Positions 3,617-44,288 of a DNA stretch of 64,000 bases are shown here, piece after piece (position 1 is the stretch's first letter; each line of letters begins with the position of its first letter). Below the pieces are notes generated by a model. It had not been told where the DNA came from. It worked only from the letters and a program-made list of their open reading frames with translations, and did no database searches. The position numbers and the translations under genes were made by a program. This DNA comes from a virus (taxonomy: Duplodnaviria; Caudoviricetes): IMG/VR virus record IMGVR_UViG_3300025679_000005; one strand, given 5' to 3'.

Positions 3617-4129
3617 TCATAGGTCCCACTTGTCCAGACGTTCCCAGAACGGAATCCGCTCAATAGGTTCGACAATGTCAGCTTCAACAGGCTCGATGTC
3701 ATTGCAGCCCAGCCCCGTGCCCATTTCTCTGGACCTCGCAAGGTATGCCTTGAAGTCTTCGGCCTCAGTGAGCGCTGCTCCCCTAAGGAAATGTGTGAAG
3801 ACTAAAGTGTCAAGAGGGGCTCTACGGCAGTCCATCAACGAGGTCGGGATAGGGTAGCCCAATCCAGTATCGATGGATACAACCGCAAGCTCGGTGCCTA
3901 ATTCATACCGGCCTAATTCATACCTGCGCACCACACAATAGCGCTCAAAACCAGGGATAGCCCGAATGGTCGCTATAAGCCAGGCATGTGTCTGCCTCAA
4001 TTGCTCCTTTTTGGAGGCTTCCTCTTCATGCCGCTGTTGACGAGATTGCCGAATCTGAATCCATATAACTCCGCCTGCAAACAGAAGGACGCCTAAAGCC
4101 ACAAATAAGGCAATTAAATCCCTAGACAT
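3617..4129 (-). CDS. Membrane-anchored protein with C-terminal tag variant (PFWERLDKWDL)
   Basis: N-terminal TM helix and the tag at the C-terminus. Confidence 0.7.
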   Translation of the reverse strand: MSRDLIALFVALGVLLFAGGVIWIQIRQSRQQRHEEEASKKEQLRQTHAWLIATIRAIPGFERYCVVRRYELGRYELGTELAVVSIDTGLGYPIPTSLMDCRRAPLDTLVFTHFLRGAALTEAEDFKAYLARSREMGTGLGCNDIEPVEADIVEPIERIPFWERLDKWDL

Positions 4130-4132
4130 CGC

Positions 4133-4999
4133 CTACACCAACGGCTCATCGAGCAATCGCTCCCAAGTCGAGGGACCTACGATGACAGGTTCCTTGGGAG
4201 TAGCCGACTCAGGCTCGACGACACGGACCAGGTCAGGGGTGCTCAGAACCGCCTCAATCAACTCCATCTGCTCACTAGAGAGGTCCCAATTGTTCGCAAG
4301 ATCGAGGAATTCTTGAAGACAATCAGAGGTGTCATCGCTCATGACTGTACCCAGTACGCCGAAAGAGGCCCTATCTTCAACCGCTAGGAGGATGACGGAG
4401 GCCTCACTGACAGTGAGCCACCTCTCGGCCGCGTTACGAGTCACAAAGTTGATCATGGCCACAGTAAGTGCGTTGCCATCGGTGTCGCCACTGGTCCGGA
4501 TCAGGGCGTTATGGCTGAGCCATTGATAGTGCTGATGACGGACATGAGCGATAGCTGGGTGCGGCCCATCAGTCTCCAGTCTGATAGTATCCCCGACACG
4601 AAAGACATAGGGAGTTCCCTCGAATTCGTAAAAGATTCGCTGAGTCGGATGGTACAGGGTGTCCACAGCTCCTGGTGCTACCCAGTTTTCGTTGAGCAAT
4701 ACCCGAAGAATTCGTTGAGGGACCTGGGCTGAAATAGGTGGGCCCTCCTGAGTGCTAGCCAAATCGGCCGTCGCCCGGAATTCATCGCCACCATTGAGGT
4801 TGGCCCCTCTGAAGAAGGTCGACCAGCCCATGCTGTTACCGCCCAGGGCCTCCAACTCTCCGTCCTCGATGAAAGGCGCACTCGTATTCTCCATGACATA
4901 GACAGGGCGATTGGCCTCGATCCTGGCCAGTTGAAACCATCCCTGGACGTACCCAAGCTCCAGGTCATGCTCGGATATGACAAGTTCCCTAGGAGGCAT
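4133..4999 (-). CDS. C-terminal-tag protein (STWERLLDEPLV)
   Basis: 288-aa ORF, 3 nt from the next gene. Confidence 0.75.
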   Translation of the reverse strand: MPPRELVISEHDLELGYVQGWFQLARIEANRPVYVMENTSAPFIEDGELEALGGNSMGWSTFFRGANLNGGDEFRATADLASTQEGPPISAQVPQRILRVLLNENWVAPGAVDTLYHPTQRIFYEFEGTPYVFRVGDTIRLETDGPHPAIAHVRHQHYQWLSHNALIRTSGDTDGNALTVAMINFVTRNAAERWLTVSEASVILLAVEDRASFGVLGTVMSDDTSDCLQEFLDLANNWDLSSEQMELIEAVLSTPDLVRVVEPESATPKEPVIVGPSTWERLLDEPLV

Positions 5000-5183
5000 T
5001 TGTCACCGGGATCAGCTCGTAATGCTCCCGCTTCTTCCCACGGGATACCAACGCCTGCTCCCATTCGCTAGCAGTCTTCTGCATCGCCTCCTTGGGGTCC
5101 TGAGTCCACCGGTTCCAAGCGCCTATCATCTCCGCGATGTAGAGGGGCGTGGGGCTGTCCTTGAACTTGACGATGTACTGCAT
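4989..5183 (-). CDS. Paralog family B stand-alone domain
   Basis: YIA..G..RWT...EA..KT..EW...HYEL is shared with the C-termini of 7520..8254 and 8251..8757. Confidence 0.65.
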   Translation of the reverse strand: MQYIVKFKDSPTPLYIAEMIGAWNRWTQDPKEAMQKTASEWEQALVSRGKKREHYELIPVTNAS

Positions 5184-5192
5184 TTTTTAGGC

Positions 5193-5423
5193 CTAGTTGG
5201 CTGGAGGGCGAGCCATTCTGACGAAGGATTCCTGAGCCAAACGCAGCTTTCGCAGCCACTCGGTGTCGGCCTCAGAAAGCGGATCCCCTGCAAAGAGGCG
5301 CTTCATGGTTGCAACAGCTTCTTCATCGGACATACCCCATTGAAGCAGGCAGAAGAGCGTGAATTCCGGCGATGAGGCATGGTCCTTAGCCTCTTGCTCT
5401 GTCTTGAAAACTTGAATAGTCAT
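5193..5423 (-). CDS. Hypothetical protein
   Basis: Part of the packed minus-strand gene train. Confidence 0.55.
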   Translation of the reverse strand: MTIQVFKTEQEAKDHASSPEFTLFCLLQWGMSDEEAVATMKRLFAGDPLSEADTEWLRKLRLAQESFVRMARPPAN

Positions 5424-6066: not shown

Positions 6067-6197
6067 CCTGTCCTTACGGCTGAGGGCCGTGGCCCTTAAG
6101 GGCTGTTGTAGGAATTGTTAGGCCTACATGTAGGTACAGTGTATGTTTTATTCGGAAAAGATCGTGCCAACATCGAATCGGTGTAGGATCTAAGGCA

Positions 6198-7058
6198 ATG
6201 CCGATCAACTGGGACAACTACACAACCGTCAGAGCCCATACCTTGTCGAGTCCCCAAGGCGAGGTCGTTCCAGCGAATTTGATCGCTACCGGTCTTAGAT
6301 GGATCACAGAGGTGCCTGCTGTTGGTGATTACCCGTGTTTCACCGCCAACACCCCGCTCACATGGTTCAGCCAGAGAACAGAGCCAGGGTCCCTCATTGT
6401 CCTTTCGAACCTGATTTGCCCTCGTCACGTCCAAATGGACGAGACCACCCTCTCAGGCTTCCACCGAAGCGGGGCGATTCTACGCCTAGATGGCGGGGCC
6501 TATAATACTCTGAGGCGCATTACCTGGATGAGCTATTCTCTGGGGCGCGAGACATTGCCGGTCGGGATTACCTTCAGCACCATCCCTGAAGTGAATGCAT
6601 TCGAAGATAGCCTAACAGCTATTACCAGACTGATTGAAGAGTACTCCGAGCAAAGGCTTCATCTAGCAGCGACCCCTCTCCTGGAGATCAGGGCTATGTT
6701 TATTAATCCCGTAGATGCTGGTGTATCGAGTCTAGCCAATAGTTTCCGCGAGGAGAGGGCGACCCGACACACTGAGGAAGTGGAGAGGGTCCGTCAACTT
6801 CGCTTGAATCAGCTGGATGAGGCCCTGGGGCGGGCGGAATTGTCCCCAAACCAGGCGTTCGTCATCAAGCAGGTGCTGGCTCACCCCACAAGCTTTTCCG
6901 TGCATCGAACGACTGCCACTCAGACCTTGATCTTCGCTGACTTCATAGTAGACGAGCCAGGCCCAGGAAGAACCCCGACGGAGCCGGTCGCAGAGTTAGT
7001 CCGACCCACTGCCTGGGAGCGTCTCAGCGATCCGCTACTGCCGGAGGAAGGTGAGTAG
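6198..7058 (+). CDS. C-terminal-tag protein (TAWERLSDPLLPEEGE)
   Basis: 286-aa ORF with a GGTGTA motif 12 nt upstream of the ATG. Confidence 0.75.
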   Translation: MPINWDNYTTVRAHTLSSPQGEVVPANLIATGLRWITEVPAVGDYPCFTANTPLTWFSQRTEPGSLIVLSNLICPRHVQMDETTLSGFHRSGAILRLDGGAYNTLRRITWMSYSLGRETLPVGITFSTIPEVNAFEDSLTAITRLIEEYSEQRLHLAATPLLEIRAMFINPVDAGVSSLANSFREERATRHTEEVERVRQLRLNQLDEALGRAELSPNQAFVIKQVLAHPTSFSVHRTTATQTLIFADFIVDEPGPGRTPTEPVAELVRPTAWERLSDPLLPEEGE

Positions 7059-7142: not shown

Positions 7143-7523
7143 TTACTTGGGGACGGCATTGGCAGCCTCCCAGGCGGCTCGCTCAGGAGACCGGAGGTAT
7201 GTCTCCAACCGTTCTCGATAGGCCTTCAGCAAGTCCGGTACATCGTTCCTGACGCAGGATTCGATGAGCAGCTCTAAGGCCATCACCTCAGGGTCGACGG
7301 TGGAGACATATTCGACCACAGAACTGCCGTCATCCAGCTCCCTGAGCTTATCGATCACAGTCAGGGGAATCCCGTAGTCCCCTCCTAAACGTTTGGGATT
7401 GCTATCTACCACTCCCAAGACGCCATCAAGGATCTCGATCCACAGCTCGGAATCGATGATGTGCGTAGCCCTCCACCAATCGGTTTTGGTGAATCGCCAG
7501 CCGTCGAGATCGAAATCAGTCAT
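7143..7523 (-). CDS. Hypothetical protein
   Basis: ATGA-type overlap with the upstream gene. Confidence 0.6.
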   Translation of the reverse strand: MTDFDLDGWRFTKTDWWRATHIIDSELWIEILDGVLGVVDSNPKRLGGDYGIPLTVIDKLRELDDGSSVVEYVSTVDPEVMALELLIESCVRNDVPDLLKAYRERLETYLRSPERAAWEAANAVPK

Positions 7524-8254
7524 GGCCTAACGACCACGAAGTACTTGTCTCTGTCATGGACTTCCCTGAGGATCACATGCCATTCATCGGCAGTCTTCCA
7601 CAGAGCTTCGGAGAGGTGAAGGGTGCATCGACCTATGGGGCCCAATTCAGCTAGGTAGATGGGGCCGGGGATTGTCTTGTGCCTGAGGACGTAGAGCGGT
7701 TCGGAATTGACGGTTGTCGGCCCCTCTAGCTCCCCAAGGCCTGACGAAATTAGAGCCTCAGGCGGCTTAAAATCGTGAGCCATAGCCTCGATGTGCCGTA
7801 GAATCCAGCCAGATACAGCAATAATATTAGTATCCTTGCCTAGGTGCAGGCTAGGTTTAAGGGATACCCTCGCGCCATTGACCTTCAGATGAAGAGTCTC
7901 CGTGCCGACTCCGACCCTGAAAGAATGATGCTGACGTGGCTGTAGCCAATCGCCATCGGCGATGTAGTCAAAGAGGACCTCGGACTTGTCATTGTCCGGA
8001 GTGATAGCTTCGATCTTGAAAGACCCGATCGTGATTTGGGTGTAATGCGGCGTTAAGGCAGCAACAAAGTTCTCCTGAATGAGCCTCAAGGCATCCACCA
8101 CGAATTCGATCGTCTCGTGCTTCTGTTTTTCCAATGACTTACGGTGATCAGCCTCTTCCTGTCGCCTTTGGAAAAAGGCGTCGGTCTGCTGCTTAACACT
8201 AGCCAGCAGCTCTTCACGCATCTCTCGCATGTATGCCTCCTGTCTAGCGCTCAC
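7520..8254 (-). CDS. Hypothetical protein with C-terminal family B domain
   Basis: Coiled-coil N-terminus; ends PLYVLRH...EALWKTADEW. Confidence 0.7.
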   Translation of the reverse strand: MSARQEAYMREMREELLASVKQQTDAFFQRRQEEADHRKSLEKQKHETIEFVVDALRLIQENFVAALTPHYTQITIGSFKIEAITPDNDKSEVLFDYIADGDWLQPRQHHSFRVGVGTETLHLKVNGARVSLKPSLHLGKDTNIIAVSGWILRHIEAMAHDFKPPEALISSGLGELEGPTTVNSEPLYVLRHKTIPGPIYLAELGPIGRCTLHLSEALWKTADEWHVILREVHDRDKYFVVVRP

Positions 8255-8757
8255 GGTTCTACCCTCACCAGCTCGTAGTGCTCAGCGTCGTGCCGAAGCT
8301 CCGCCCACTGGCTTTCGGTCTTCCTCAGAGCTTCCTCAATGTTTTGAGTCCAACGACCCATGGATCCAGCTATCTGTGCGATGTAGATCCCCGGCTCGAT
8401 TTGGCGGTGTCTCAGAACGTACAGGGGATTCCTCGATAGCATCGCATGAATAGCCGAAGCGTCGGCGAACATTTGAGGAGACAGCTCTTCCTGAAGCTTG
8501 AGCACCTGATTGGCCAAGCTCAGGGCCAATTCCTCCAGCTCGGACTCCGGGGGATTGAAGTGGGCCGAGCCGTTCTCGTCGAAAAACGTCGTGTAGGCAT
8601 CTTCTACGCCTTCGGTTACGACGGCAGTGGCCAGCTCCGGCCAAAGTTCCCTGAGGATGTCATTCAGGACCCCTTGCGGCCCACGGGCGCCGACCTTGTA
8701 GCCGGCATACACTCGGGTCATCCAGACCAGCTTCTGACAGATTTCAGTGGTATCCAT
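8251..8757 (-). CDS. Hypothetical protein with C-terminal family B domain
   Basis: Ends PLYVLRH...YIAQ..GRWT..EEALRKTESQW..HYEL. Confidence 0.7.
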   Translation of the reverse strand: MDTTEICQKLVWMTRVYAGYKVGARGPQGVLNDILRELWPELATAVVTEGVEDAYTTFFDENGSAHFNPPESELEELALSLANQVLKLQEELSPQMFADASAIHAMLSRNPLYVLRHRQIEPGIYIAQIAGSMGRWTQNIEEALRKTESQWAELRHDAEHYELVRVEP

Positions 8758-9095
8758 CAGACAGCAACTTTCTGACGCAGGGCTTCGAGGTCGGTGTCAA
8801 TCATCGCCAGGACTTCGTCGTGGCGTGAGCGGTCATTGAAGCGGCTCAACGAGTCCTTGAAGCTGAAAGCGTCCCGAAGGCGGTAATACCTAGCATTGCC
8901 ATTACCGGACCTAGTCTCCCTTCTAGTCACCTTGTACATCGCCCCTACCAGGCAAAAGCAGCAAGCCGCCGGATCCGTAGCGTCAACTCCAACTCCTCCA
9001 GGTCCCAAGGCCATGTCACCTTGAATCCAATGACTATGGTCCGAGATCAGCTCACGCACCGCCATGAGGTCGGCTAGGGTTTCTTTTTCGTACAT
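8757..9095 (-). CDS. Paralog family A (DUF6197-like) protein
   Basis: HWIQG, CFCLVGAM, FND...HDEVLAMID. Confidence 0.7.
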   Translation of the reverse strand: MYEKETLADLMAVRELISDHSHWIQGDMALGPGGVGVDATDPAACCFCLVGAMYKVTRRETRSGNGNARYYRLRDAFSFKDSLSRFNDRSRHDEVLAMIDTDLEALRQKVAV

Positions 9096-11444: not shown

Positions 11445-11852
11445 TCATGTGTCCACCAATGGCTGCCGGCTTAAGGCGTTGTCGATGAGAGCCAGTACCT
11501 CCTCGTGGGCGGCTCCGTCATTGAAGGTGTACAGGAATCCATGGCGAGCCTTGAGGCGGGCTGTTCGCGGGTCCTCTCCCGGTACAGAAATCAAAGCCTT
11601 GGTCAAGGCCCTCCCCAAGGGAATGCTCCCACGAGTAATGCGATTGATACCCCCGACAAGACAGAAACAGGTAGCCTCGGCCCCGCCAGAAGAGCAGGGC
11701 TCCCCCTCCTTGTCCTTGGCGAAGCTTCCCTTCGTCCAATGACTGGGCTCAGCCAGGAGGCCTCGAAGAGCTTTCAGTCCAGCAGCGATTTCGGCATTGC
11801 TTGGGGCCATACCTTCCCTACGACTGATCTGGTCAGGAGTTAAGAGGTGCAC
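11445..11852 (-). CDS. Paralog family A (DUF6197-like) protein
   Basis: HWTKG.FAKD, CFCLVGGI, FND...HEEVLALID. Confidence 0.7.
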   Translation of the reverse strand: MHLLTPDQISRREGMAPSNAEIAAGLKALRGLLAEPSHWTKGSFAKDKEGEPCSSGGAEATCFCLVGGINRITRGSIPLGRALTKALISVPGEDPRTARLKARHGFLYTFNDGAAHEEVLALIDNALSRQPLVDT

Positions 11853-12025
11853 TCTGAAATTCCTTGGTCAAGGTTCGGCTCTGGAGGGAGCCGACTTAAG
11901 GCCCTGTCAATGAGCGCTAACACTTCCTCGTAGGTGTGCGTGTCATTGAAAACCGTAAGGGATCGAGGTTCGCCAACAGGGAGGTGCTGGCTGAGGTAGT
12001 GCCAAAGGTGTAATGAGGCTGAGGC
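11840..12025 (-). pseudogene. C-terminal remnant of a family A paralog
   Basis: Start-less frame reads ...RSLTVFNDTHTYEEVLALIDRAL...; an in-frame TAG lies upstream and the CxCL motif is missing. Confidence 0.55.
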
Positions 12026-12089
12026 CTAGGCCGCGGGCTGCAAGCCACTGAGAGCAGGGTCAGTGTTAGAAGTCGGTGCATGCTCGATC

Positions 12090-13103
12090 CTACACCAAGA
12101 AGTCGCCTAGGACATCCCACTTGGATCTGGTGACCTCAGGCAAGGGCGAAACTCTGTCTGCGGTCACCAGGATCTCCACCTTGTAGTTGCCATTGCCCAG
12201 GGCAGTGACAGTGAAGTCCTCGATAGGGGTCGAGGCTACGATCCGTACGGCCTCCTGTCGAATGTGGGCATCCAGCTCAGGCGTGGGGTCAGTCTCTGGC
12301 AGCTCTGGAGTCCCAGCAGTGCCGACCCAAGTAGGAGACAGAGCATGGAATGCCTCGTTTGGCTGAATGGCCTCATTCCCGACCCTGACAACGAGATCCG
12401 AAGAGTTCCTCCAGGTGTTGTCGGCGAACCCCGGCCACGGTCCTGATCCGACGGCCTGACGCACCATCTGCCTGTTTGCAAGCAACGCCAGGCGATCCAC
12501 TGCCCGAATTTGCGGGTCATTAGCCGTGTAGAAGCTCTGACCAGGCTCGACCACGTAGGGAAAGTCGTCGCCGTCATGGCCGACTGTGACGAACTCACGC
12601 GAGAAGTTGTACCAGAGGAACCCTCCTTGAGGAGCGATCTCGTTTCGCTCCCAAGCTGCAAGTAGGAGCGCTGGCTCACAGACAATGCGACGATAAGACA
12701 CCTGAACCGGCTGAACCGGCTGTATTATGTAGAACATCTCCCCGGGCTCGACGTTGTACGCCATGGTCGCCGTCCCTCCCACGGTAACGACGTGGTCCGA
12801 GACGTTCAGGTAAAGAGCGCCAAAGTATTCGGGCGGCGGTTGCTGTAGATGCCCCCACGAGGTCTCCCTCTCAAACAGGTCAGGATCTATCTCAATGGAC
12901 CTACGAGGCTCGATAAAGAACCTCTCCCCAGGAGCTACCCGTAGCCCATACCCAGGGGTTCCCCTCAACGTGACGTAACCGTTAGAGGTGTTGCGCCAGT
13001 AGCCGTCGTCATCGTGGACCACCAAGCCCTGTGCGAACGCCGTAGACACCATACCGGGGTCTACCCATAGGCGCCTGGGCACTGTAAAAGGCTCCTCTGG
13101 CAT
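12090..13103 (-). CDS. C-terminal-tag protein with four internal repeats (ends RSKWDVLGDFLV)
   Basis: Four units of the form W/Y-x-N-x-S...VTVG...V-x-PG-x-x-F. Confidence 0.75.
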   Translation of the reverse strand: MPEEPFTVPRRLWVDPGMVSTAFAQGLVVHDDDGYWRNTSNGYVTLRGTPGYGLRVAPGERFFIEPRRSIEIDPDLFERETSWGHLQQPPPEYFGALYLNVSDHVVTVGGTATMAYNVEPGEMFYIIQPVQPVQVSYRRIVCEPALLLAAWERNEIAPQGGFLWYNFSREFVTVGHDGDDFPYVVEPGQSFYTANDPQIRAVDRLALLANRQMVRQAVGSGPWPGFADNTWRNSSDLVVRVGNEAIQPNEAFHALSPTWVGTAGTPELPETDPTPELDAHIRQEAVRIVASTPIEDFTVTALGNGNYKVEILVTADRVSPLPEVTRSKWDVLGDFLV

Positions 13104-13254: not shown

Positions 13255-14316
13255 TCATAGGAGTGGCTCGTCACCAAGGATTTCATAGCGGGATCGGATC
13301 GGGGCATGCTCACTCACTCCTAACGGCCGGGGAAGCTCAGAGGTTAAGACCCCTTCGAGGCCGATTCCAGAGATTTCCGAATGGCCTACGGTGATTGTCG
13401 CCGCGAAGGTGTCCCCAGGGCTAATGCTGTAGCCGGACATTGTATTCACAATCGTCCGGATCAAAGCACGCTGAAGGGGGCTCAACCTAACGTCCTCGCA
13501 GACTCGATCAACGGCTTCCAGTTGGACTTGAATCCCGTCCACGCTCAAAGGGTCTATAGGTTGCGCTATAAAGTGAGACCCCATCTCAAGGCTGAGAGTG
13601 CGGCCGTCATTCGTAAAGAAGAGGATCTCGCTTCGAGCCTGGTACAGTACACCGTTGATCAGCACCACGTTATCGGTGGTCATTGCATGCTCAAAGGCCT
13701 GCCTGGGAATCACGTAGCTGCCACCAGAATCCGTCAGACGGATCAAGATGTGAGTGTGCTCAGGGGCAATCGGGGAAGGTGCTGGAGGCGTTGGAATGAC
13801 TCCCAACGTCGACCCTAAGGACATTCCAGCACTGGGACGGCCTGCGAAGAGACTATCCTCCATTCGAAAGACATCGCCCTGAGCGAGAACATGCCGTATA
13901 TCGTTGGAGTCAATGAGGGTTACCCTTTGCCGGACTAGGTAGTCCCCAGCCAGAGGTCGATCAAAGTACCCCTCCCCCTCTAACCTATAGAACTGATATC
14001 GCAGAACCGCGAATGCAGCGGTACGTTCTGGCCCTGTGTGGAAAATCCTAACGTATAGGGGCTCTGGAATCGGCCGCCGCTCCACCAAATCAGGAAAAGG
14101 TGTGGCCGTGAATAGATCTCCCGTCCAAAGCCGGTGGGTCGCACCATCACGGTCTTGTACTCCTATAGTAACAAGGGCTTCGTAGTGGTGCTCCCGGATA
14201 CGGTATAGAATCTGCCGCAATCTCAGACCCTCCTCGATCGCGGTTGCGTTTACAACAAAGGCATCAATATTTAGGGTAATGTTCGGCGATATCCTAGTGA
14301 TCGTGTAGAAGGGCAT
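13255..14316 (-). CDS. C-terminal-tag protein (RSRYEILGDEPLL)
   Basis: 353-aa ORF with the subterminal helix LSPLQRALIRTIV. Confidence 0.75.
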   Translation of the reverse strand: MPFYTITRISPNITLNIDAFVVNATAIEEGLRLRQILYRIREHHYEALVTIGVQDRDGATHRLWTGDLFTATPFPDLVERRPIPEPLYVRIFHTGPERTAAFAVLRYQFYRLEGEGYFDRPLAGDYLVRQRVTLIDSNDIRHVLAQGDVFRMEDSLFAGRPSAGMSLGSTLGVIPTPPAPSPIAPEHTHILIRLTDSGGSYVIPRQAFEHAMTTDNVVLINGVLYQARSEILFFTNDGRTLSLEMGSHFIAQPIDPLSVDGIQVQLEAVDRVCEDVRLSPLQRALIRTIVNTMSGYSISPGDTFAATITVGHSEISGIGLEGVLTSELPRPLGVSEHAPIRSRYEILGDEPLL

Positions 14317-14319
14317 CGT

Positions 14320-14490
14320 CTAGACCAAAGGCTCTTGAAGACGGTCCCCTAGGGAACGCCTCACGATTGGAGGGTTCTCAAGGCGCTCACAACGTGGGCA
14401 GTGAATGCCCCAGCCACCGCCGGCTATGACCGCTTGAGGGTGGCCCGCGATGGCACAGAGGAAGAGCTTTAGCCTAGTGAGAAAGTTCAT
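14320..14490 (-). CDS. 56-aa tag protein with CxxC (MNFLTRLKLFLC...HCPRC...RRSLGDRLQEPLV); not in track
   Basis: Manual translation; stop is 3 nt from the ATG of the next tag gene. Confidence 0.65.
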   Translation of the reverse strand: MNFLTRLKLFLCAIAGHPQAVIAGGGWGIHCPRCERLENPPIVRRSLGDRLQEPLV

Positions 14491-18724: not shown

Positions 18725-18733
18725 TCGTTCCTC

Positions 18734-19990: not shown

Positions 19991-19993
19991 AGA

Positions 19994-20052
19994 AAGTATA
20001 TTACTAATTAGGTATACCCTTGTCAAGGGGCTCCTTCGTAAGTAATATACTT
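19994..20052. promoter_or_regulatory. Operator-like inverted repeat in a divergent promoter
   Basis: AAGTATATTACT / AGTAATATACTT 12-bp perfect IR with central palindrome CCCTTG-T-CAAGGG. Confidence 0.6.
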
Positions 20053-23210: not shown

Positions 23211-23213
23211 CTC

Positions 23214-25490: not shown

Positions 25491-26669
25491 CTAGACTAAC
25501 GGATCGTCTAGTCGCTCGATCCAACTAGGCCATGAACTAGGAGGCCGCTTCTCCTCAGCCTGTGCTACCCAGGCAACAGGCTCAGTCCCCGGGACTGTAG
25601 CCACTGCCAAAGTCACGTTTACGTTGACATTGTCAGCGACAATGGATTCAAAACCCGGCTCGTGGTTCAAGATCGCCAGGACCAAAGCCCGCTGTATCGG
25701 CGGAATCGCTAGGCGGGCCAGGTACTCGACGACAATCGCTGACCTGAAAGGAACCTGAGGGAACAGCCCACCCAGAGTATGGTCAGGTTCTGGCTCGGGA
25801 GCCGCCTCAGCTTGAGGAGGCGGAATATACTCAATGAGTTCAGCATCATAGGCGGATCCTTGGGCAAGGACCACTTGGCCGCCATCCACTTGGTCTAGGT
25901 AGAGCGCCTGCCTAGCAAGGAGCGTCATTCCCGTGTCCGTCTGGGGAGTGACCTCAGCGTAGCCCATTTCAAGGTACTGCTGAACACGCCTCACGGGAAC
26001 GTCGTGGAGTCTCCCATTGGCGAGAATACGCACGGCATTGACTCCAGGCCGGACAGCCATCATCGCCCCCAAACTAGTGGTTACTGGGACCGTCCGATTC
26101 GCTGGGAACTGAGGATCGTCAATGGCCGGAGTCGGAGTCACCCAGTAATCCCTGCCCGCACGAATGGAACACCTGGCGTAGATGGCGGTGGTTGTAACGT
26201 TCATGTCAAAATCAAGAGTAGCCCGTAGGCAAACCCTGGAGGTAGCTCCATGGCCGTTGTCTACCCGCTCATGGGTAATAACTCGAAGGGCTCCGCCGTC
26301 AATGGCCTGCTCAAGGACAGCACGGACAACATGGAAAATAGCAGGGGTTTCTATCCGAAAGAGCGCACCCTCAGGCAATGCCAATGTCAGCTCAGGAACG
26401 TAGACGTAGGCTCGGAGCCAGAAAACCCCCCGGGCAGGGAATACATGCTCTCGCCCCATAACATCCACCAAGCGGGTATCGAAAGACCCCACTTGGCAGT
26501 AAATGTCAGAATCTGACCTGAATCCGGTCCTGAACCCGAAGTTGAGTCCGGGAGCAGCCTCCAACGCCGATCGAGCGATGTAGCCGATGTTGTTAGTGAC
26601 AGGGGTAATGTTAGACGTAAGCACCAGTAGGTGAGTGTAGGTACTCGAAGTTGCGAGTTCGTAAGGCAT
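25491..26669 (-). CDS. C-terminal-tag protein (PSWIERLDDPLV)
   Basis: 392-aa ORF with the subterminal helix IPPIQRALVLAIL. Confidence 0.8.
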   Translation of the reverse strand: MPYELATSSTYTHLLVLTSNITPVTNNIGYIARSALEAAPGLNFGFRTGFRSDSDIYCQVGSFDTRLVDVMGREHVFPARGVFWLRAYVYVPELTLALPEGALFRIETPAIFHVVRAVLEQAIDGGALRVITHERVDNGHGATSRVCLRATLDFDMNVTTTAIYARCSIRAGRDYWVTPTPAIDDPQFPANRTVPVTTSLGAMMAVRPGVNAVRILANGRLHDVPVRRVQQYLEMGYAEVTPQTDTGMTLLARQALYLDQVDGGQVVLAQGSAYDAELIEYIPPPQAEAAPEPEPDHTLGGLFPQVPFRSAIVVEYLARLAIPPIQRALVLAILNHEPGFESIVADNVNVNVTLAVATVPGTEPVAWVAQAEEKRPPSSWPSWIERLDDPLV

Positions 26670-26672: not shown

Positions 26673-27302
26673 CTAAACCAGTGGATCCCCTAGACGTTCA
26701 CCCCAACTGAGCCCGATCGCCTCTGATTCTTCGGGAATAATCACCTTGGCCTTGAACCCGGACCCATCGGGGACCACCTCAAGGCAGATGGGCGATCCCA
26801 AAATCTTCGAGTTTATCAGCAATGACTGAAGCTGAATGGCCCCGCCCATGTACAGAGCCAAGGCATTCCCGAGTTCGTGTTGCCGCCTAGGGCTCTCTAG
26901 GTCTGCCCCGATAACGTCAGCCGCAACTGGATATGCCCAATAGATCTCGCCACTGAGCAAACGAACGATACTGAGCAAACGAACGGTCCTCGTTGAAGAG
27001 GCAACGGTCAGGGACACCCCAGAAACCACCCGCAATTGCAGTAGCGCAGGGTCAACATTCATCCGCTCCAATTCCCCACGTCGTTGAGCTTGCTCAACTT
27101 CGGATCGGTACACGTAGTGGCTCTCCGTACCATCACCACCTAGACGAATCCGAAGAAGCTGTGGAGGATCAGGGACAGTACGAGCGGAACCAAAAGGTGG
27201 ATCGTCCAATCGCTCAGACACTATCCGGAAGTGTGTGTAGTCATCCGCCGAAGGAATGTACGGCCTAGGCACCCTCAAGCTCCTTAGCCAATGCCAAGGC
27301 AA
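26673..27302 (-). CDS. C-terminal-tag protein (LSWGERLGDPLV)
   Basis: 209-aa ORF, 3 nt from the next tag gene. Confidence 0.75.
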   Translation of the reverse strand: MPWHWLRSLRVPRPYIPSADDYTHFRIVSERLDDPPFGSARTVPDPPQLLRIRLGGDGTESHYVYRSEVEQAQRRGELERMNVDPALLQLRVVSGVSLTVASSTRTVRLLSIVRLLSGEIYWAYPVAADVIGADLESPRRQHELGNALALYMGGAIQLQSLLINSKILGSPICLEVVPDGSGFKAKVIIPEESEAIGLSWGERLGDPLV

Positions 27303-33467: not shown

Positions 33468-33503
33468 CCTTAACTTCCCCTGCCCGGCTCCGTTCTACTT
33501 ATC
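33468..33503 (+). promoter_or_regulatory. Repeated promoter-like motif
   Basis: CCTTAACTTCCCCTGCCCGGCTCCGTTCTACTTATC then ATG 33504. Confidence 0.75.
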
Positions 33504-37030: not shown

Positions 37031-37960
37031 ATGCCCGACAACGATCATCTGTTCTTCCTGGAGCGTGACGAGGGAAGCCGCTTGGCGCTGGAAGAACCCC
37101 CCTTGGCACGCCCAGCAGAGCCCCTACCGTCACCCACGTTCACGCTCGTCTTGACCGTATCCGGTCCGGACGTTCACGGCCTCGAAATGGTCGTTGGCCA
37201 AGCCGACTTCCAAAGGGCCATGGACAGAGGCGACATCGTTATAGGGGGGGTGGACACCCGCGCCCACTTCGAGGTCATTCAGCCCGTCACGTTCGGTCAG
37301 TTTATCCTCGCCCTGGGAACAAGATTCTCGATCCGGCAATCGAATACGTACTCAACCGTTCGCCCAGGGGTCACACATCCGAATCGGGGAGCCCTCGCAG
37401 TCGACGCCCAAAACCTGAGAAATTACATCGCCTGGGGTTGGCTCATCCCAACGACGCCCGAAGGTCCTCTGTACCGTACCCCGAGAGGCTTCAATATCGT
37501 ATTGGTCAACAGCCACGTCATCCCCCTGATTGCTGACGAAGTCATTGAGGTCGTCACGCCGGTCGAGCCGAACCTCGATCTCGAACGGCCGGCCCTCACT
37601 ACGCAGGAGTTCCACACACCGTACCACTCCACAGCCGGCTTGGAGCTACCACCCGCACGCCCCGCTTGGATACGCAATGCCATTCGTGCCATAACAACCT
37701 CTCTTGCAGCAGACGGCCTAGGGGACGCCCAGATCCAACGAGTCATAAACCTTCTCCTCACACCCGGCTCTGGCCTAGAGCTTGCCCAAGCTCCAACCCC
37801 CTCTGATGATGAAGTCCTTGAGGCCATCACTCGTCGAAGAGACGCTGCTACTGTAGATGGCCAAGTCTTAGGGCCTGTCCTCAGAGTGACCCCACCAACG
37901 CCCGAGCCTGACAGACGCTCTGTGTGGGACAGACTAGGAGACGATGACGACCTAGGATGA
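37031..37960 (+). CDS. C-terminal-tag protein (RSVWDRLGDDDDLG)
   Basis: 309-aa ORF with the subterminal helix LGDAQIQRVINLLLTPG. Confidence 0.75.
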   Translation: MPDNDHLFFLERDEGSRLALEEPPLARPAEPLPSPTFTLVLTVSGPDVHGLEMVVGQADFQRAMDRGDIVIGGVDTRAHFEVIQPVTFGQFILALGTRFSIRQSNTYSTVRPGVTHPNRGALAVDAQNLRNYIAWGWLIPTTPEGPLYRTPRGFNIVLVNSHVIPLIADEVIEVVTPVEPNLDLERPALTTQEFHTPYHSTAGLELPPARPAWIRNAIRAITTSLAADGLGDAQIQRVINLLLTPGSGLELAQAPTPSDDEVLEAITRRRDAATVDGQVLGPVLRVTPPTPEPDRRSVWDRLGDDDDLG

Positions 37961-38279: not shown

Positions 38280-39317
38280 ATGCTTCCCATCAACTTCAAG
38301 GACCTCACTGGCCAACGCTTCGAAGAGCTGAAACTGACCGTGATCGGTGCGACCTCACCTGACGCACATGGGCACATGCTGTGGAAGTGCCTACGGGATG
38401 ACGGCTCGGAAATACTGCGGACGGGCAGCTACCTGACGCATTACAAGCCCAGGGAGAAGGTGTTGCATCCCAAGCGTCCGCCAGCACCCAAGATCAAGCC
38501 GACTCCGGAGTACACTGCCTGGACTTCGATGAAACAGCGTTGCTTGAATTCTAACGCTCAAGCCTACAAGGACTACGGAGGGCGAGGCATCACCGTCTGC
38601 CAGCGGTGGCAGGACAGCTACGAGGCCTTCCTAGAGGACGTTGGGCCACGACCGGGCAAAGGCTACTCTCTTGAACGGGAGCATTCTGACGGCAACTACG
38701 AGCCGGGGAATGCGCACTGGGCTACGCGCATAGCTCAAGCACGAAACACTAGAGCAAGCCGTCTGCTGACCCATCAAGGGGAGACATTGACCGTGGCCGG
38801 TTGGGCAGAGAGACTGGGAATTCCAAAGCACACAATTACAAACCGTCTGAACCAGGGCCTGGAAATAGAAGCGGTGTTTGGCCCCACCAAACTAAAGCCT
38901 AGAACTGGCTTTGAGCGGACTATCGGCGTTGAACGTGACGCCTGGAAAGCAATGCTACATCGTTGCACGAACCCGAAACATCCTGCCTGGTCGAAGTATG
39001 GTGGCCGAGGGATCCTGGTGTGCGAACGTTGGCTGGGATCCTTCGACAACTTTCTGGCTGATGTTGGCGCCCGACCAGGTCCTGGGTACAGTCTGGAGCG
39101 GAAGGATGTCAACGGCAATTACGAGCTGGACAACTGCAAGTGGGCTACTAGGACGGAGCAGATGCGGAACACCAGGAAGACGCGCTGGCTCACGTTGCAC
39201 GGGGTCACGCGCAGCTTGAGTGAGTGGGCCGAGGTGACGGGCATCAACTACGAGACGATCCGCAATCGGCTACGGAAGGGGTTGTCGGTGGAACGGGTGC
39301 TGGCCTTGGCGGTGTAG
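38280..39317 (+). CDS. Free-standing HNH-type endonuclease with a tandem duplicated domain
   Basis: Two copies of AW..M..RC.N....Y..YGGRGI.VC.RW...SLER....GNYE..N..WATR..Q.RN; extended -10 TGCTATACT upstream. Confidence 0.85.
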   Translation: MLPINFKDLTGQRFEELKLTVIGATSPDAHGHMLWKCLRDDGSEILRTGSYLTHYKPREKVLHPKRPPAPKIKPTPEYTAWTSMKQRCLNSNAQAYKDYGGRGITVCQRWQDSYEAFLEDVGPRPGKGYSLEREHSDGNYEPGNAHWATRIAQARNTRASRLLTHQGETLTVAGWAERLGIPKHTITNRLNQGLEIEAVFGPTKLKPRTGFERTIGVERDAWKAMLHRCTNPKHPAWSKYGGRGILVCERWLGSFDNFLADVGARPGPGYSLERKDVNGNYELDNCKWATRTEQMRNTRKTRWLTLHGVTRSLSEWAEVTGINYETIRNRLRKGLSVERVLALAV

Positions 39318-39326
39318 ATAACGGGG

Positions 39327-40774: not shown

Positions 40775-41518
40775 TGTTCATGGACGAACTCGATGGTTGT
40801 TTCAGCTTCGTCGCGTGCTTTGCCATCATGTGGATCGTGGTGGTCTTGGGAGCGATCTCCCTGGCCGTTTACGGCCGGGCGTGGATCGTCGAGAACTGGT
40901 TCTTGTTCCTGCTGGCTGGGCTCATTGGGTTGATGACCCTGGACCGATCATGATCTCCGATAAAGATTTTGCTGTCTTTGAAATGTGGTTCCGGGAATAC
41001 TTCGATGTTGATGGGCCCGAGGAGTTGCCGGACCCGAAGTACCTTCACCTGTGGGCAGACCTGCATGGACAAGAATTCCTATCGGAATTGAAGGCGATGC
41101 GAAAGGTACCCATCTGTCCTGGGTGTTGTCATCCTCGGTGTGACTCCAGGTGTGACCTCAACGCCAATCCGGTTTACCGGTACATTCCCGGCGAGCCCTG
41201 TCCCTGCTGCGTGTTCAAGTCCGAGCCTTAGCCCATGATCGTACTCTCTCGAAGACGCCAGGGGATAGCTGAAGCCATCGGGGCGGCAACCGCTCACGAT
41301 ATCTTCGTGTCGATGTTGAACCCGAATTTTCGAGGGGAGAACTTCACTTGGGCGAAGCTAGAAGAGATGGCTGTGATCTCTGCCAGGAACAGGATTCCTC
41401 TTCACGGTAACTTCGGTCGGGACCTGTTGACGATGCAAAAAGTCGCCGAGCATTGGGCGAGGTATATTGTCAAAACTTGCCTGTCTGACTCCGATGTCGA
41501 GACGTGGTTGCCTCTGCC

Positions 41519-41848
41519 GTGAGCGTGCTCTCTCAGGCCTATGAGGACGCTAAGGCTGAGATCGATTACCTACAGCGGTGGGCGTATAGCCAATATCTGT
41601 GGGTGCAACGCCCGGGGCATCGTCGCGTGCGAATTCGCACTACGACATTGCTAGGGCTTGAATCCATGATCATGAAAGCGATTGACTATCTTGGAGTCGA
41701 AGGCGGACGACCTACCTTCCGAGCATTTTCCTCGGAAGTGACGATGGGTTCCGTGTTCACGGTCAAGCACTTCGAGAAGTTTCAGATAGTCGGAATTGAA
41801 TTTCCGAAACTTTCCGTCTGGGATCGCCTTTCCGACCCTATTATCTAA
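41519..41848 (+). CDS. C-terminal-tag protein (LSVWDRLSDPII)
   Basis: GTGA overlap with the upstream gene; tag at the end. Confidence 0.7.
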   Translation: MSVLSQAYEDAKAEIDYLQRWAYSQYLWVQRPGHRRVRIRTTTLLGLESMIMKAIDYLGVEGGRPTFRAFSSEVTMGSVFTVKHFEKFQIVGIEFPKLSVWDRLSDPII

Positions 41849-41876
41849 GAGCAATCACTGACCGTAAGGACCTTCC

Positions 41877-43207
41877 ATGGGCTCATTCAACGCTACCTGT
41901 ATCGTCTCCAATCTTCCTATTGAAGCTGGGGACAAAGTTCGATACCTCGCACTTGCCCGGAACGCTTACGATGTCGACGGATCCGGCCTCTGCTGTTACG
42001 TCACGGGGCGTTGGCAGCTCCACGGGGTTCCGATCAAAGCCGAGTACAACGACTACGGCTCAGTGGAAAACATCGTCCCGGGGTTCACGACGGATCTCTT
42101 TTTCAAGGGACTGGCGATGGCAGTGGTCGAGGTCGGGGTCGGGGACAATTCGTGTCATGACGTTCCCGTCCGTGAGGACATGAACGTGGAACAGTGGCTG
42201 GAGGCCCTTTGGGAGGGGCGGGTCAAGGTCAGTGACCACAGGGCGTTGTATCGCAAGATCTCAGAGGCTAAGGAGCTTGACCAGAAGCTTGAGGAGCTGA
42301 CGGGATCGAACCCGCAGTTGGCTGGATTCTACGATCCGAAGGCTTATGAGCCAACGACAGGGATTCCTTCGTTCCGGCGGATCGAGAAGCTCATGGCTGA
42401 AGCCGGGATCGAGGTCTCATCCGGTGGCTTCGCTTCCGGTGTTTTGGTCGACGAGGTAGGTTCTGGATTCGTTCGCATCCGCCGTGGGGAGATTGGTGAG
42501 AAGCCGGGTCTGGAGCCTCTCCTTCCGATCCTACATGGGGCTCATACACCAATGGATCGGAGATCTTGGTTGGGGCTTTGCCCAGTACCGATCCGAAGGT
42601 TCACATCCACGTGAACCACGACGTTGAGGACTACAACAAGGCGAGGCCGGTTTCTGCGGCGATGATTCGAGAGGATGTGTGGCAGATCCTTGTGAATACG
42701 CCCATAGATTCCTGGCACGGCAACTACAACATCGACAGTTTCAAGTCCGAGGCTTTGAGGGCCTTGGAAGGGGACCTTGCTAAGGCCGAAGAGCTGAAAG
42801 TGGCTAAGGCCGGTGGAGACGAGAGTAGGATCTTCCGTTTGGCTATGCGGATGAACGACGACTTCGACATCAATCCCCGGGAGAATGTTTTCCGGGGATC
42901 AATCCGCGGCAGCGAAGGCGTTTCCGGATTCTCATTCCGGGAGGCGTTCCGTTTCGGTATCGAGCAGGGAACGTCACCTGAAGAGTTGCGTGCCTACATT
43001 CTCGACTTGGCGGAGACGGTCTACGTCCAGTGGGTGTATTCAGTACTCCACGGGCAGTGGCATCCGACGACGAACTCCGGCCAGGAGGGCAACTGGAAGG
43101 AGCACCGCCAGTTTCTGACATCGTTGTTGGAGATCAAGGGACGCTGGGAGAATGCGTCCGATGAGTCTGATGAGGGCGAGGACGACGATTCGGGACCGGA
43201 GGAGTGA
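41877..43207 (+). pseudogene. One conserved-looking phage gene split by a -1 frameshift near 42497-42563
   Basis: Two overlapping ORFs (41877..42614 and 42566..43207) with continuous coding style; G4 run at 42537-42540. Confidence 0.55.
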
Positions 43208-43883
43208 TTTCCCCTGGTGTAAGGTAGGCCGTGAAATTCATTACTGTATTCAATCGTGTCCTTAGCCTAGCTAGGGCGGACGGCTACAGCAGACTGTTTC
43301 AAAGTGAGCCTGGGGAAAGACCTCTTCTATCTGTGCTGTTGAGATCTGACGACGACTGGGAGATGCGTGTGTTGGGATCCGGTGGCGTGGCCGGCTTCGG
43401 GAAAGGGTCTACCTTGGAAGAGGCAGAGGCACAGGTCATGGCCAATCTGTCTAGCTTGAACCGGGCCCTTTCGGGGCTCATCTACGAGCTTACGTGAATT
43501 CCCCTAGGAATCTGTTTCCGAGCTGATTTCGGCCCTCTACCCACCGCGGCCTGCGGCCGTAGACTCAGTCCCACTTACGATGGTTTCGAGCCGTCCAGAA
43601 GTCCTTGGAGTAGTCCCCAATATTGAGACCATTATCCCCCACGTGAACAACGATAGATCTACGACAACCTCAAGGAGAACAACTAGTGGAACGCCGGTTT
43701 GTGATTCAGTACATGAAGGATGACGGTTCTTGGCACGATTACGTGCCCCGTCCGATTCTGGAGAGGGACCAGAGTTACGAAGAGGTTGTGCGGATGGCCA
43801 AGGACCTAAAGCCCGAGTTGAAGCAGTGGCGGGTCCTGACCTACACCCTGACTGCGACCCTGAATTTGGGGTAGACTGTTTCG

Positions 43884-44288
43884 ATGCCCACTAACATCAA
43901 GGACTTTGTGGCCGGGGTGCAGGCACCCCTTGAGCCTGAGGACAAGCCTACGCCAAGGTTGGCCGAGGCTTTGCAAAAGGTCCTGGACAGGTACAGGTCA
44001 GCCGAAAGGTTGCTCCTCGATGAGTACTACCCTCTTGGAACGATCCTGTATATGATCTCGACAGTCTTTTACGAGCCTTTGGGAGAGTTCCTTGAGAGAG
44101 GGACACCAGGGAAGGTAGTCAGCCGCTGGTCGTGGAATGCGGGCACTGAACATTCCATCCACATTGAGATCGTCTCTCCCTCAGGGATCATTCACAGGAT
44201 TACAGAGGATCTACCAAACATCCAGCATGGCTGGTCCTTGGACCCTCCGGCCACGATTGCAGATCGCCTAACGGACCCCCTTCTCTAG
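43884..44288 (+). CDS. C-terminal-tag protein (ATIADRLTDPLL)
   Basis: 134-aa ORF. Confidence 0.7.
   Translation: MPTNIKDFVAGVQAPLEPEDKPTPRLAEALQKVLDRYRSAERLLLDEYYPLGTILYMISTVFYEPLGEFLERGTPGKVVSRWSWNAGTEHSIHIEIVSPSGIIHRITEDLPNIQHGWSLDPPATIADRLTDPLL

What the first reader, a model, noticed from the sequence alone, without database searches (positions are those of the whole stretch)
3617..44288. At least 11 dissimilar proteins share a C-terminal peptide tag, W[DE]RLx[DE]PL[VL]: candidate addressing or docking system
Seen: the C-termini are 3617 PFWERLDKWDL*, 4133 STWERLLDEPLV*, 6198 TAWERLSDPLLPEEGE*, 12090 RSKWDVLGDFLV*, 13255 RSRYEILGDEPLL*, 14320 RSLGDRLQEPLV*, 25491 SWIERLDDPLV*, 26673 SWGERLGDPLV*, 37031 SVWDRLGDDDDLG*, 41519 SVWDRLSDPII*, 43884 TIADRLTDPLL*. 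The carriers range from 56 to 392 aa, lie on both strands across 40 kb, include a TM protein and a CxxC mini-protein, and are often preceded by a Pro-rich linker. Three pairs are adjacent with 3-nt gaps. The codons differ synonymously (R as CGA/CGT/CGC/AGA; P as CCG/CCA/CCT/CCC), so selection acts on the peptide rather than on a DNA repeat. Established analogies: T4 gp43/gp33/gp55 share a C-terminal sliding-clamp-binding peptide, and encapsulin cargo uses C-terminal loading peptides. Inference: a modular zip code recruiting a variable cargo set to one partner (capsid interior or ejection machinery, phage compartment, host hub protein or protease).
Basis: partly seen in the sequence, partly recalled or inferred. 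Interest (0 to 1): 0.9.

Follow-up and report, generated by a model that had tools for sequence, protein, structure and literature searches.

The report
Shared C-terminal peptide tag, huge phage
A 464-kb CasPhi-carrying phage from peat ends at least 15 otherwise unrelated, database-orphan proteins with the same short peptide ([R/P]-[S/T]-x-W-[D/E]-R-L plus an acidic/hydrophobic end), which looks like a portable docking handle for one unidentified partner.

Summary
All 11 listed ORFs end in the peptide. I confirmed 4 more just upstream of the window on the same 464-kb contig.

- **Position:** in 100 kb, W-[DEQ]-R-L occurs 10 times over six frames. Nine of these lie 4-10 residues before the stop of a long ORF (p about 1e-11).
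- **Level of selection:** Arg and Leu each use five codons, so selection acts on the peptide.
- **Context:** the tail follows a Pro-rich linker, and AlphaFold models it as a short N-capped helix.
- **Carriers:** they share no significant similarity outside the tail and have no Pfam, PHROG or PDB match. Almost none has a homolog among billions of proteins.
- **One ortholog:** a roughly 75%-identical strain keeps the tail while the middle of the protein is replaced.
- **Sister phage:** it shows no such tails in 33 kb.
- **Topology:** one carrier is membrane-anchored with the tail on the cytoplasmic side.

My reading is a short linear docking motif read by a common cytoplasmic partner. No partner was found, so every specific role (clamp, protease, packaging, Ubl) stays open.

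First-stage notes report the same tag in four other windows of this genome (about 35 carriers in total). The scan has also seen analogous but different shared tails in other phages. I class it as a new variant of a known kind, of moderate to high interest.

The parts
3617..4129 (-). Carrier 1, 170 aa. It has an N-terminal transmembrane helix followed by a basic stretch, so the C-terminal domain and the tail ...IPFWERLDKWDL* should face the cytoplasm.
   Evidence: Topology is inferred from the positive-inside rule. Only weak, sub-threshold Pfam/PHROG hits to the TM region.
4133..4999 (-). Carrier 2, 288 aa, starts Met-Pro, tail ...PSTWERLLDEPLV*. Its stop lies 3 nt before the start of carrier 1.
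   Evidence: No family hit. Present in the public protein set as P0126.
6198..7058 (+). Carrier 3, 286 aa, starts Met-Pro, tail ...PTAWERLSDPLLPEEGE* (motif 10 residues from the stop). It has its own GGTGTAGGAT promoter-like motif 18 nt before the ATG.
   Evidence: P0121
12090..13103 (-). Carrier 4, 337 aa (public aa), tail ...RSKWDVLGDFLV*. The body shows three PG[EQ]xF[FY] hairpin-like repeats.
   Evidence: ESM Atlas model poor, no look-alike.
13255..14316 (-). Carrier 5, 353 aa, starts Met-Pro, tail ...RSRYEILGDEPLL*.
   Evidence: No homolog other than itself among 5.8 billion clusters.
14320..14490 (-). Carrier 6, 56 aa, hydrophobic N-terminus and one CxxC, tail ...RSLGDRLQEPLV*. Its stop lies 3 nt before the start of carrier 5.
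25491..26669 (-). Carrier 7, 392 aa, starts Met-Pro, tail ...PSWIERLDDPLV*.
   Evidence: No homolog. No Atlas look-alike.
26673..27272 (-). Carrier 8, 199 aa (GTG start, then Pro), tail ...LSWGERLGDPLV*. Its stop lies 3 nt before the start of carrier 7. A DUF6197 gene (27265-27591) overlaps its start.
   Evidence: P0125
37031..37960 (+). Carrier 9, 309 aa, starts Met-Pro, tail ...RSVWDRLGDDDDLG*. It is the only carrier with an ortholog elsewhere: P0127, 192 aa, tail RRSVWDRLGDDDIE*.
41504..41848 (+). Carrier 10, at most 114 aa (start uncertain; an ATG at 41666 would give 60 aa), tail ...LSVWDRLSDPII*.
43884..44288 (+). Carrier 11, 134 aa, starts Met-Pro, tail ...ATIADRLTDPLL* (no Trp).

Best explanation
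The tail is a short linear docking motif.

**Shown**
- Its core is [R/P]-[S/T]-x-W-[D/E/Q]-R-L, usually followed by an acidic residue and a hydrophobic end (commonly D-P-L-V).
- It sits 3-10 residues from the C-terminus, behind a Pro-rich linker.
- It is under peptide-level selection.
- It is attached to many sequence-unrelated, fast-evolving accessory proteins of one huge phage lineage.

**Inferred**
- The Ser/Thr caps a one-to-two-turn helix that puts Trp and Leu on one face.
- This helix docks in a hydrophobic groove of one common partner. The partner is cytoplasmic, because a membrane-anchored carrier presents the tail on the cytoplasmic side.
- The partner is probably phage-encoded, because the nearest sister phage lacks the tails in the 33 kb examined.

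**Open**
- What the partner does with the clients (gather, load, modify or destroy them) is unknown.
For: - **Position:** 9 of 10 W[DEQ]RL in 100 kb lie at C-termini of long ORFs, p = 1.2e-11.
- **Peptide-level selection:** five codons each for Arg and Leu.
- **Linker:** Pro-rich, p = 1e-4.
- **Predicted shape:** AF2 on the 123-aa carrier gives a folded ferredoxin-like body, a low-confidence linker at 101-111 and a helix at 112-117 covering S-W-E-R-L-S.
- **Unrelated bodies:** carriers are unrelated by BLAST and by a leave-one-out HMM, and they include a TM protein, a 56-aa protein, a 121-123-aa paralog trio and 200-390-aa proteins.
- **Ortholog:** it keeps the last 35 residues and the tag although its middle is replaced.
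- **Lineage-specific:** a tail-profile search of 1.84 billion representatives finds only this phage's proteins and that ortholog.
- **Sister phage:** the contig shares both promoter motifs with this phage but has no tagged gene in 33 kb.
Against: - No partner was identified and no binding was tested.
- Only one cross-genome comparison exists. There the 36 tag-coding bases are 36/36 identical against a roughly 75% background. That could reflect recent exchange or a nucleic-acid constraint rather than purifying selection on the peptide.
- Some carriers may be very distant paralogs: a hairpin pattern is 7-fold enriched (post hoc), and 8 of 11 start Met-Pro.
- The residues after R-L are variable, and the distance to the C-terminus ranges from 4 to 10 in verified carriers (unverified notes list one at 3). 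The 'DPLV' end is therefore not a fixed part of the code.
- In carriers 2 and 4 the final Leu-Val-stop codons (TTGGTGTAG) coincide with a promoter-like GGTGTAG motif.
Confidence: 0.5

Rival explanations
1. The tail is a shared degron. A phage or host AAA+ protease, or its adaptor, recognises it and removes a whole class of accessory proteins at a set time. This is a special case of docking, with destruction as the outcome.
For: - The tail is terminal, exposed and on a flexible linker.
- 9 of 15 verified tails end in two or three aliphatic residues, as many bacterial C-terminal degrons do (the degron comparison is from my own knowledge).
- The carriers look like accessory proteins whose activity may need limiting.
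Against: - The conserved part is W-[DE]-R-L, not the last residues. Several tails end in acidic or Gly/Pro residues (DDDDLG, PEEGE, AQSE, STEEIP).
- No protease or adaptor gene lies in the window.
Confidence: 0.12
2. The tail is the surviving end of one old, extremely diverged paralog family, spread further by 3'-end recombination. It would be kept for folding or oligomerisation of each protein, not because a common reader exists.
For: - 8 of 11 window carriers start Met-Pro (Fisher p = 4e-5).
- A helix pattern L-[SP]-x-x-Q-x-x-x-I-x-x-x-L recurs 50-80 residues before the end in 5-7 carriers.
- A hairpin pattern is 7-fold enriched.
- The trio upstream of the window are true paralogs.
Against: - With the tail masked, the left-out member never ranks first in the HMM searches.
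- The tail also sits on a TM protein, a 56-aa protein and a ferredoxin-like family with quite different bodies.
- The tail is separated from the body by a disordered linker, which does not fit a folding role.
- The Met-Pro start also goes with the GGTGTA promoter context (ATGC in 9 of 14 such genes).
Confidence: 0.15
3. The tail is a virion-incorporation or ejection signal that loads the carriers into the capsid or another virion part. This would work like an encapsulin cargo-loading peptide or the capsid-targeting sequence of T4 internal proteins.
For: - The layout (C-terminal peptide after a flexible linker) matches encapsulin cargo (PMC8346489).
- A 464-kb phage has room for many internal proteins.
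- One carrier cluster lies directly upstream of the 2256-aa fibre-like gene.
Against: - A membrane-anchored carrier cannot be packaged as such.
- The tagged genes are interleaved with sigma factors, transposases and small leaderless genes, not with head genes.
- First-stage notes (unverified) place the head module more than 100 kb away, with its own N-terminal tag and protease code.
- There is no resemblance to known loading peptides.
Confidence: 0.08
4. It is a clamp-binding motif. The tails tether their proteins to the phage's own bacterial-type beta clamp, or block the host clamp, as the C-termini of T4 gp43, gp55 and gp33 bind gp45.
For: - The architecture matches the T4 epitopes: short, hydrophobic plus acidic, at the very end, on a divergent flexible linker, and interchangeable (PMC2988020).
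- Clamp-binding motifs occur at either terminus (PMC11139829), and a first-stage note reports one N-terminal copy of the tag.
- Notes report beta-clamp, holA, holB and dnaX genes in this genome (unverified).
Against: - The motif does not fit Q-phi-x-[LM]-[FL] or Q-phi-x-[LM]-x-[FL] (PMC11139829).
- None of the carriers has a recognisable DNA-handling domain.
- There are far more clients than any known clamp has, and one is membrane-anchored.
Confidence: 0.07
5. It is a nucleic-acid signal (promoter, coupling or RNA element) that happens to be translated, or a type-1-like secretion signal.
For: - In carriers 2 and 4 the last codons plus the stop read TTGGTGTAG, a promoter-like motif. Three tagged genes end 3 nt before the next ATG.
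- The tag DNA is 36/36 identical between strains.
- Acidic-plus-three-hydrophobic ends recall the protease T1SS motif (from my own knowledge).
Against: - The core W-[DE]-R-L is encoded by many different codons.
- Most tagged genes have no gene directly downstream.
- No ABC exporter or membrane-fusion protein lies in the window, there are no RTX repeats, and one carrier is a membrane protein.
Confidence: 0.04

Closest known systems
C-terminal sliding-clamp-binding epitopes of phage T4 gp43, gp55 and gp33 (Geiduschek and Kassavetis 2010, PMC2988020)
   Same: Several unrelated proteins of one phage end in a highly similar short hydrophobic-plus-acidic peptide. It is joined to the body by a divergent, probably unstructured linker, and the peptides are interchangeable handles for one partner.
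   Different: T4 has three clients, all working on DNA. Here there are at least 15 clients (about 35 by unverified notes) of unknown function, one of them membrane-anchored. The sequence differs, and no clamp link is shown.
Bacterial beta-clamp binding motifs, Q-phi-x-[LM]-[FL] and Q-phi-x-[LM]-x-[FL] (PMC11139829)
   Same: A short linear motif at a disordered terminus of many clients of one hub.
   Different: The consensus is not met: there is no Gln at position 1, and the core is Trp/Arg-based. The carriers have no replication or repair domains.
Encapsulin cargo-loading peptides (Andreas and Giessen 2021, PMC8346489)
   Same: A C-terminal peptide behind a flexible linker addresses varied cargo to one protein shell of viral (HK97) ancestry.
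   Different: Cargo genes normally sit next to the shell gene. Here the genes are scattered over more than 100 kb, far from the head genes. One carrier is a membrane protein, and there is no sequence likeness.
Acidic C-terminal tails of T7 gp2.5 and gp4 that dock on T7 DNA polymerase (from my own knowledge)
   Same: An acidic terminal tail with a critical aromatic or hydrophobic residue, shared by different proteins of one phage.
   Different: T7 has two clients. Its tails are long acid runs ending in Phe, with no W-x-R-L core.
LIR/AIM motifs, [W/F/Y]-x-x-[L/I/V], that bind ubiquitin-like ATG8 proteins (from my own knowledge)
   Same: The core W-x-x-L is preceded by Ser/Thr. First-stage notes report a Ubl-E1-E2-JAB operon in this genome (unverified).
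   Different: That is a eukaryotic system. In LIRs the acidic residues precede the aromatic residue, while here they follow. No bacterial or phage Ubl is known to read such a motif. Nothing was tested.

Membership tests
T4-type clamp-binding C-terminal epitope | Short hydrophobic and acidic peptide at the extreme C-terminus, on a divergent flexible linker | tested here: met
   Tail alignment of 15 carriers. The linker is 13% Pro against 6.4% in the bodies. AF2 gives a low-confidence linker followed by a short helix.
T4-type clamp-binding C-terminal epitope | Carriers are clamp clients (polymerase, sigma-like factor, co-activator or other DNA-tracking proteins) | tested here: not met
   No carrier has a Pfam, PHROG or PDB-sequence match. 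The two sigma factors in the window lack the tail.
T4-type clamp-binding C-terminal epitope | Demonstrated binding to a sliding clamp encoded by the phage or its host | not testable with these tools
   Clamp genes are reported only in unverified notes from other windows. The rest of the genome is not searchable, and no co-folding tool is available.
Bacterial beta-clamp binding motif | Sequence fits Q-phi-x-[LM]-[FL] or Q-phi-x-[LM]-x-[FL] | tested here: not met
   None of the 15 tails fits in any register (compared with the consensus in PMC11139829).
Encapsulin / capsid cargo-loading peptide | Cargo genes adjacent to an HK97-fold shell gene, and cargo soluble | tested here: not met
   No capsid or shell family was found in the window or in the 36 kb upstream. 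Carrier 1 has a TM anchor.
Encapsulin / capsid cargo-loading peptide | Carriers found inside particles | not testable with these tools
   This needs virion proteomics. The phage is known only from metagenomes.
Type 1 secretion C-terminal signal | ABC exporter and membrane-fusion protein genes nearby, with RTX or similar repeats in the substrates | tested here: not met
   The Pfam inventory of the window holds none. There are no Gly-rich nonapeptide repeats in the carriers.
Ordinary paralog family | Significant full-length or domain similarity among members outside the shared tail | tested here: not met
   All-vs-all BLAST gives E >= 0.007 in an 11-sequence database. In the leave-one-out HMM with the tail masked, the left-out member ranked 8th to 119th or was not found. 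Exception: the three 121-123-aa carriers upstream are paralogs (26-28% identity).
DNA repeat / mobile sequence | Copies alike at nucleotide level, including third codon positions | tested here: not met
   Five synonymous codons each for Arg and Leu, and four for Pro.

The most novel reading that the evidence does not exclude
The tail is the address label of a proteome-scale docking network in a virus of bacteria. Roughly one in fifteen proteins of this 464-kb phage would be gathered by one phage-encoded hub through a W-x-R-L helix, and new accessory genes would join the network simply by acquiring the tail. The hub could be, for example, its divergent beta clamp, its ubiquitin-like protein system, or a scaffold of an infection compartment.
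Probability: 0.3. Interest if true: 0.85.

Novelty: new variant of a known kind. Interest (0 to 1): 0.6.

Why it matters
Shared terminal handles are known in phages only for a few clients, such as the T4 clamp binders and the T7 acidic tails. Here a single peptide marks at least 15 verified orphan proteins, and perhaps about 35.

- **A handle on orphan genes.** Most genes of huge phages are orphans.
- **An evolutionary route.** The tag would show how new phage genes can be plugged into an existing machine by gaining a dozen codons.
- **A possible tool.** The tail could serve as a portable recruitment tag.

Tried and rejected
**Family and structure searches on the carriers**
- Pfam and PHROG scans of all carriers gave nothing.
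- Homolog searches for carriers 7 and 5 found only the proteins themselves.
- ESM Atlas for carriers 4 and 7 gave poor models and no look-alike.
- A PDB sequence search with the tail profile gave nothing.
- The AF2 model of the 123-aa carrier is a generic ferredoxin-like fold. Its best PDB match is a phage SAM lyase (E = 1e-3, TM 0.46), too weak to use.

**Searches for the tag elsewhere**
- My first DNA pattern for the tag in IMG/VR matched none of the phage's own tails, so it was uninformative.
- A narrower pattern (E-R-L-x-D-P-L-V-TAG) gave one chance hit in IMG/VR and 15 chance hits in JGI metagenomes: wrong GC, short ORFs, no second tail, and no class-2 promoter motifs.

**Whole-genome access**
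- No whole genome is held, and the 464-kb record cannot be searched.
- I therefore walked 36 kb upstream with look-ups.

**Relatives**
- The 345-aa neighbour used to find relatives is a widespread, probably mobile, duplicated-domain gene. Only one contig found through it (L003/L009/L029) is a true sister phage.

**DUF6197 as a candidate reader**
- Four paralogs sit near the carriers.
- The AF2 model is helical with no structural match, there is no PDB relative, and no copies occur near the four upstream carriers. This remains a loose lead only.

**Promoter class**
- Promoter class of the tagged genes showed no significant bias.

Full report
**What the DNA is.** The window lies on a 464,302-bp metagenomic contig (ENA ERZ27294387, k141_731965; window position w corresponds to record position w + 255,772). 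The same sequence sits on an 83.7-kb JGI contig. The only sequencing run found to hold it is a peat metagenome. No match exists in the phage, plasmid or IMG/VR collections. The window and the 36 kb upstream contain:
- an IS4-type transposase and three TnpB genes;
- two sigma factors, an RNA ligase, KptA, and DMP19- and DUF6197-family genes;
- a 761-aa Cas12-like gene, an integrase, and a 2256-aa fibre-like gene.

First-stage notes describe the genome as a CasPhi-bearing huge phage. I did not verify that beyond these genes.

**The observation.** All eleven C-termini are as quoted. Four coordinates in the finding mark gene starts, or are slightly off, rather than C-termini (see the observation check).
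- In the window, W-[DE]-R-L occurs five times in all six reading frames, each time 5-10 residues before the stop of a long ORF.
- I extended the sequence 36 kb upstream by four look-ups on the same contig. This confirmed four more carriers: three paralogs of 121-123 aa ending PTAWQRLENPEL, PTAWQRLAQSE and PTSWERLSSTEEIP, and a 113-aa protein ending RSVWDRLMEDQIL.
- Over this 100 kb, 9 of 10 W-[DEQ]-R-L copies lie 4-10 residues before a stop with at least 110 open codons upstream. Only 4.8% of positions qualify by chance (at a threshold of 40 open codons), so p = 1.2e-11. Shuffled DNA gives 2.8 copies on average.
- Aligned on the core, the 15 tails read [R/P]-[S/T]-x-W-[D/E/Q]-R-L-x(0-2)-acidic-...-hydrophobic.
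- Arg is written with five codons and Leu with five, so this is not a DNA repeat.
- The 20 residues before the tail are twice as Pro-rich as the bodies (p = 1e-4).

**Are the carriers unrelated?** By sequence, mostly yes.
- All-vs-all BLAST finds only the tail.
- When the tail is masked, an HMM built from six large carriers does not find the seventh.
- None has a Pfam, PHROG or PDB relative.
- Carriers 5 and 7 have no homolog among 5.8 billion protein clusters.
- A profile of the tails searched against 1.84 billion representatives returns only this phage's proteins, one ortholog and two low-complexity giants.

There are hints of old common ancestry among the large carriers. A recurring helix pattern sits 50-80 residues before the end. 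A hairpin pattern is 7-fold enriched, though I chose it after looking. A Met-Pro start occurs in 8 of 11 carriers (p = 4e-5). However, ATGC is also the usual start context behind the GGTGTA promoter-like motif, so the Met-Pro start may be a nucleic-acid effect. The TM protein, the 56-aa protein and the ferredoxin-like trio are clearly different kinds of protein.

**Evidence from relatives.**
- The single ortholog (P0127, on a 3.5-kb JGI contig from a strain about 75% identical in DNA) keeps the N-terminal 110 residues and the last 35 residues with the tag. About 120 residues in between are replaced. This is what a portable terminal module predicts. The tag-coding 36 bases are identical between the strains, so this one pair cannot separate peptide selection from recent exchange.
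- A sister phage contig (Logan SRR30224793, 44 kb) shares the sigma/DMP19 neighbourhood and both promoter-like motifs. It has no tagged gene in the 33 kb I could read.
- Pattern scans of IMG/VR and JGI metagenomes returned only chance hits.
- The tag therefore looks like a recent, lineage-specific invention. That fits a phage-encoded reader better than a conserved host hub, though the evidence is thin.

**How it probably works.**
- The Ser/Thr and the acidic residue three positions later form a helix-capping box.
- AlphaFold, given only the three paralogs, folds the body (pLDDT 76), leaves residues 101-111 disordered, and places a helix on S-W-E-R-L-S.
- Trp and Leu would then face one side, which is a typical groove-binding handle.
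- Carrier 1 has an N-terminal membrane helix followed by a basic stretch, so its tail should be cytoplasmic (inference from the positive-inside rule).
- None of the other carriers has an obvious signal peptide (by eye), although carrier 6 has a hydrophobic N-terminus of unclear meaning.
- The distance from the core to the C-terminus varies from 4 to 10 residues, and the last residues vary. A free carboxylate at a fixed distance is thus not essential.
- I found no reader. The window's Pfam inventory has no PDZ, TPR, protease, clamp or shell protein.
- Four DUF6197 paralogs sit close to carrier clusters. Their model is an unmatched helical bundle, and none lies near the upstream carriers, so this is only a loose lead.

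**Comparison with known systems.**
- *T4 clamp binders.* The closest precedent is T4, where gp43, gp55 and gp33 share interchangeable hydrophobic-acidic C-termini on divergent linkers that bind the gp45 clamp (PMC2988020). The architecture is the same. The sequence, the number of clients and the kind of clients are not.
- *Bacterial clamp motif.* The tails do not fit the bacterial clamp-binding consensus (PMC11139829).
- *Encapsulin loading peptides.* These share the layout but not the gene neighbourhood, and a membrane-anchored carrier does not fit.
- *Leads from first-stage notes (unverified).* This genome is reported to hold a beta clamp with its loader, a Ubl-E1-E2-JAB operon, and a separate N-terminal tag in the head module.

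**Earlier notes.** The same tail was noted by first-stage readers in four other windows of this genome, spanning about 220 kb. I re-found five of those copies myself: four upstream of the window and one overlapping it. The scan has also followed up analogous but different shared tails in other phages and an archaeal island.

**Verdict.** The feature is real, statistically strong and under peptide-level selection. It is best read as a portable docking motif for an unknown common partner. Function and partner are untested. I class it as a new variant of a known kind.

Noticed in passing
window-wide, e.g. 23210-23249, 33464-33503, 52931-52970; also 6177-6197, 39309-39326: Two promoter-like motifs abut start codons, and most genes lack a Shine-Dalgarno sequence. 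One is CTTAA[CG]-N15-18-CGTTCTA-N6-ATG (18 copies in 100 kb). The other is GGTGTA[AG], 4-14 nt before the ATG (64 copies in 100 kb). This suggests leaderless mRNAs. The sister phage contig carries both motifs.
   Followed up: partly
2543-3013, 8757-9095, 11445-11852, 27265-27591 (all minus strand): Four DUF6197 (PF19698) paralogs with an invariant CxC...FND..H signature. Three lie within 600 nt of a tagged gene. The AF2 model is helical (pLDDT 72), with no PDB relative by sequence or fold.
   Followed up: partly
4989-5183, 7520-8254, 8251-8757 (minus strand): A second shared C-terminal module of about 60 residues, ending ...HYEL[IV].V.P, on three otherwise different proteins.
   Followed up: no
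38280-39317 (+): A 345-aa protein made of two copies of a YGGRGI.VC..W...SLDRID..GNYEPGNCRWAT..EQ.RN domain. It has more than 6,600 homologs, many on 300-440-kb contigs. It is probably a mobile DNA-binding or nuclease-like gene, and it is a poor marker of phage relatedness.
   Followed up: partly
tagged genes' starts, e.g. 4997-4999, 6198-6202, 13101-13103, 37031-37035: 8 of 11 tagged genes begin ATG-CCN (Met-Pro), against about 12 of 98 other genes (Fisher p = 4e-5). ATGC is also common after the GGTGTA motif, so this may be an initiation-context effect.
   Followed up: partly
37913-37948 (+) and L007:3242-3277: The 36 bases encoding RRSVWDRLGDDD are identical in a strain that is otherwise about 75% identical. 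This may be either recent exchange or an extra nucleic-acid constraint.
   Followed up: no
upstream of the window: L012:9335-9700, 11496-11861, 11866-12237: Three tagged paralogs of 121-123 aa with a ferredoxin-like AF2 model (pLDDT 76). The best PDB match is a phage SAM lyase (6zm9, E = 1e-3, TM 0.46), too weak for an assignment.
   Followed up: partly
50482-50733 and 50775-51008 (+): Two adjacent genes whose first 77 codons are identical, each with the same 40 bases upstream, including the CTTAAC...CGTTCTA promoter-like motif.
   Followed up: no
18734-20026 (-), 44827-46026, 59951-60802, 62133-63152 (+): An IS4-type DDE transposase and three TnpB genes (73-82% identical to each other) inside a phage genome. 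A 761-aa Cas12-like gene and a tyrosine recombinase lie 21-26 kb upstream of the window (L012:15106-17391 and 18607-19446).
   Followed up: no
53737-54564 (-): A KptA/Tpt1 RNA 2'-phosphotransferase (Pfam E = 1e-46). The Pfam inventory of window proteins also found an RNA ligase, an RRM protein and an HD-domain protein, whose positions in the window I did not determine. Together these would make an RNA-repair gene set.
   Followed up: no
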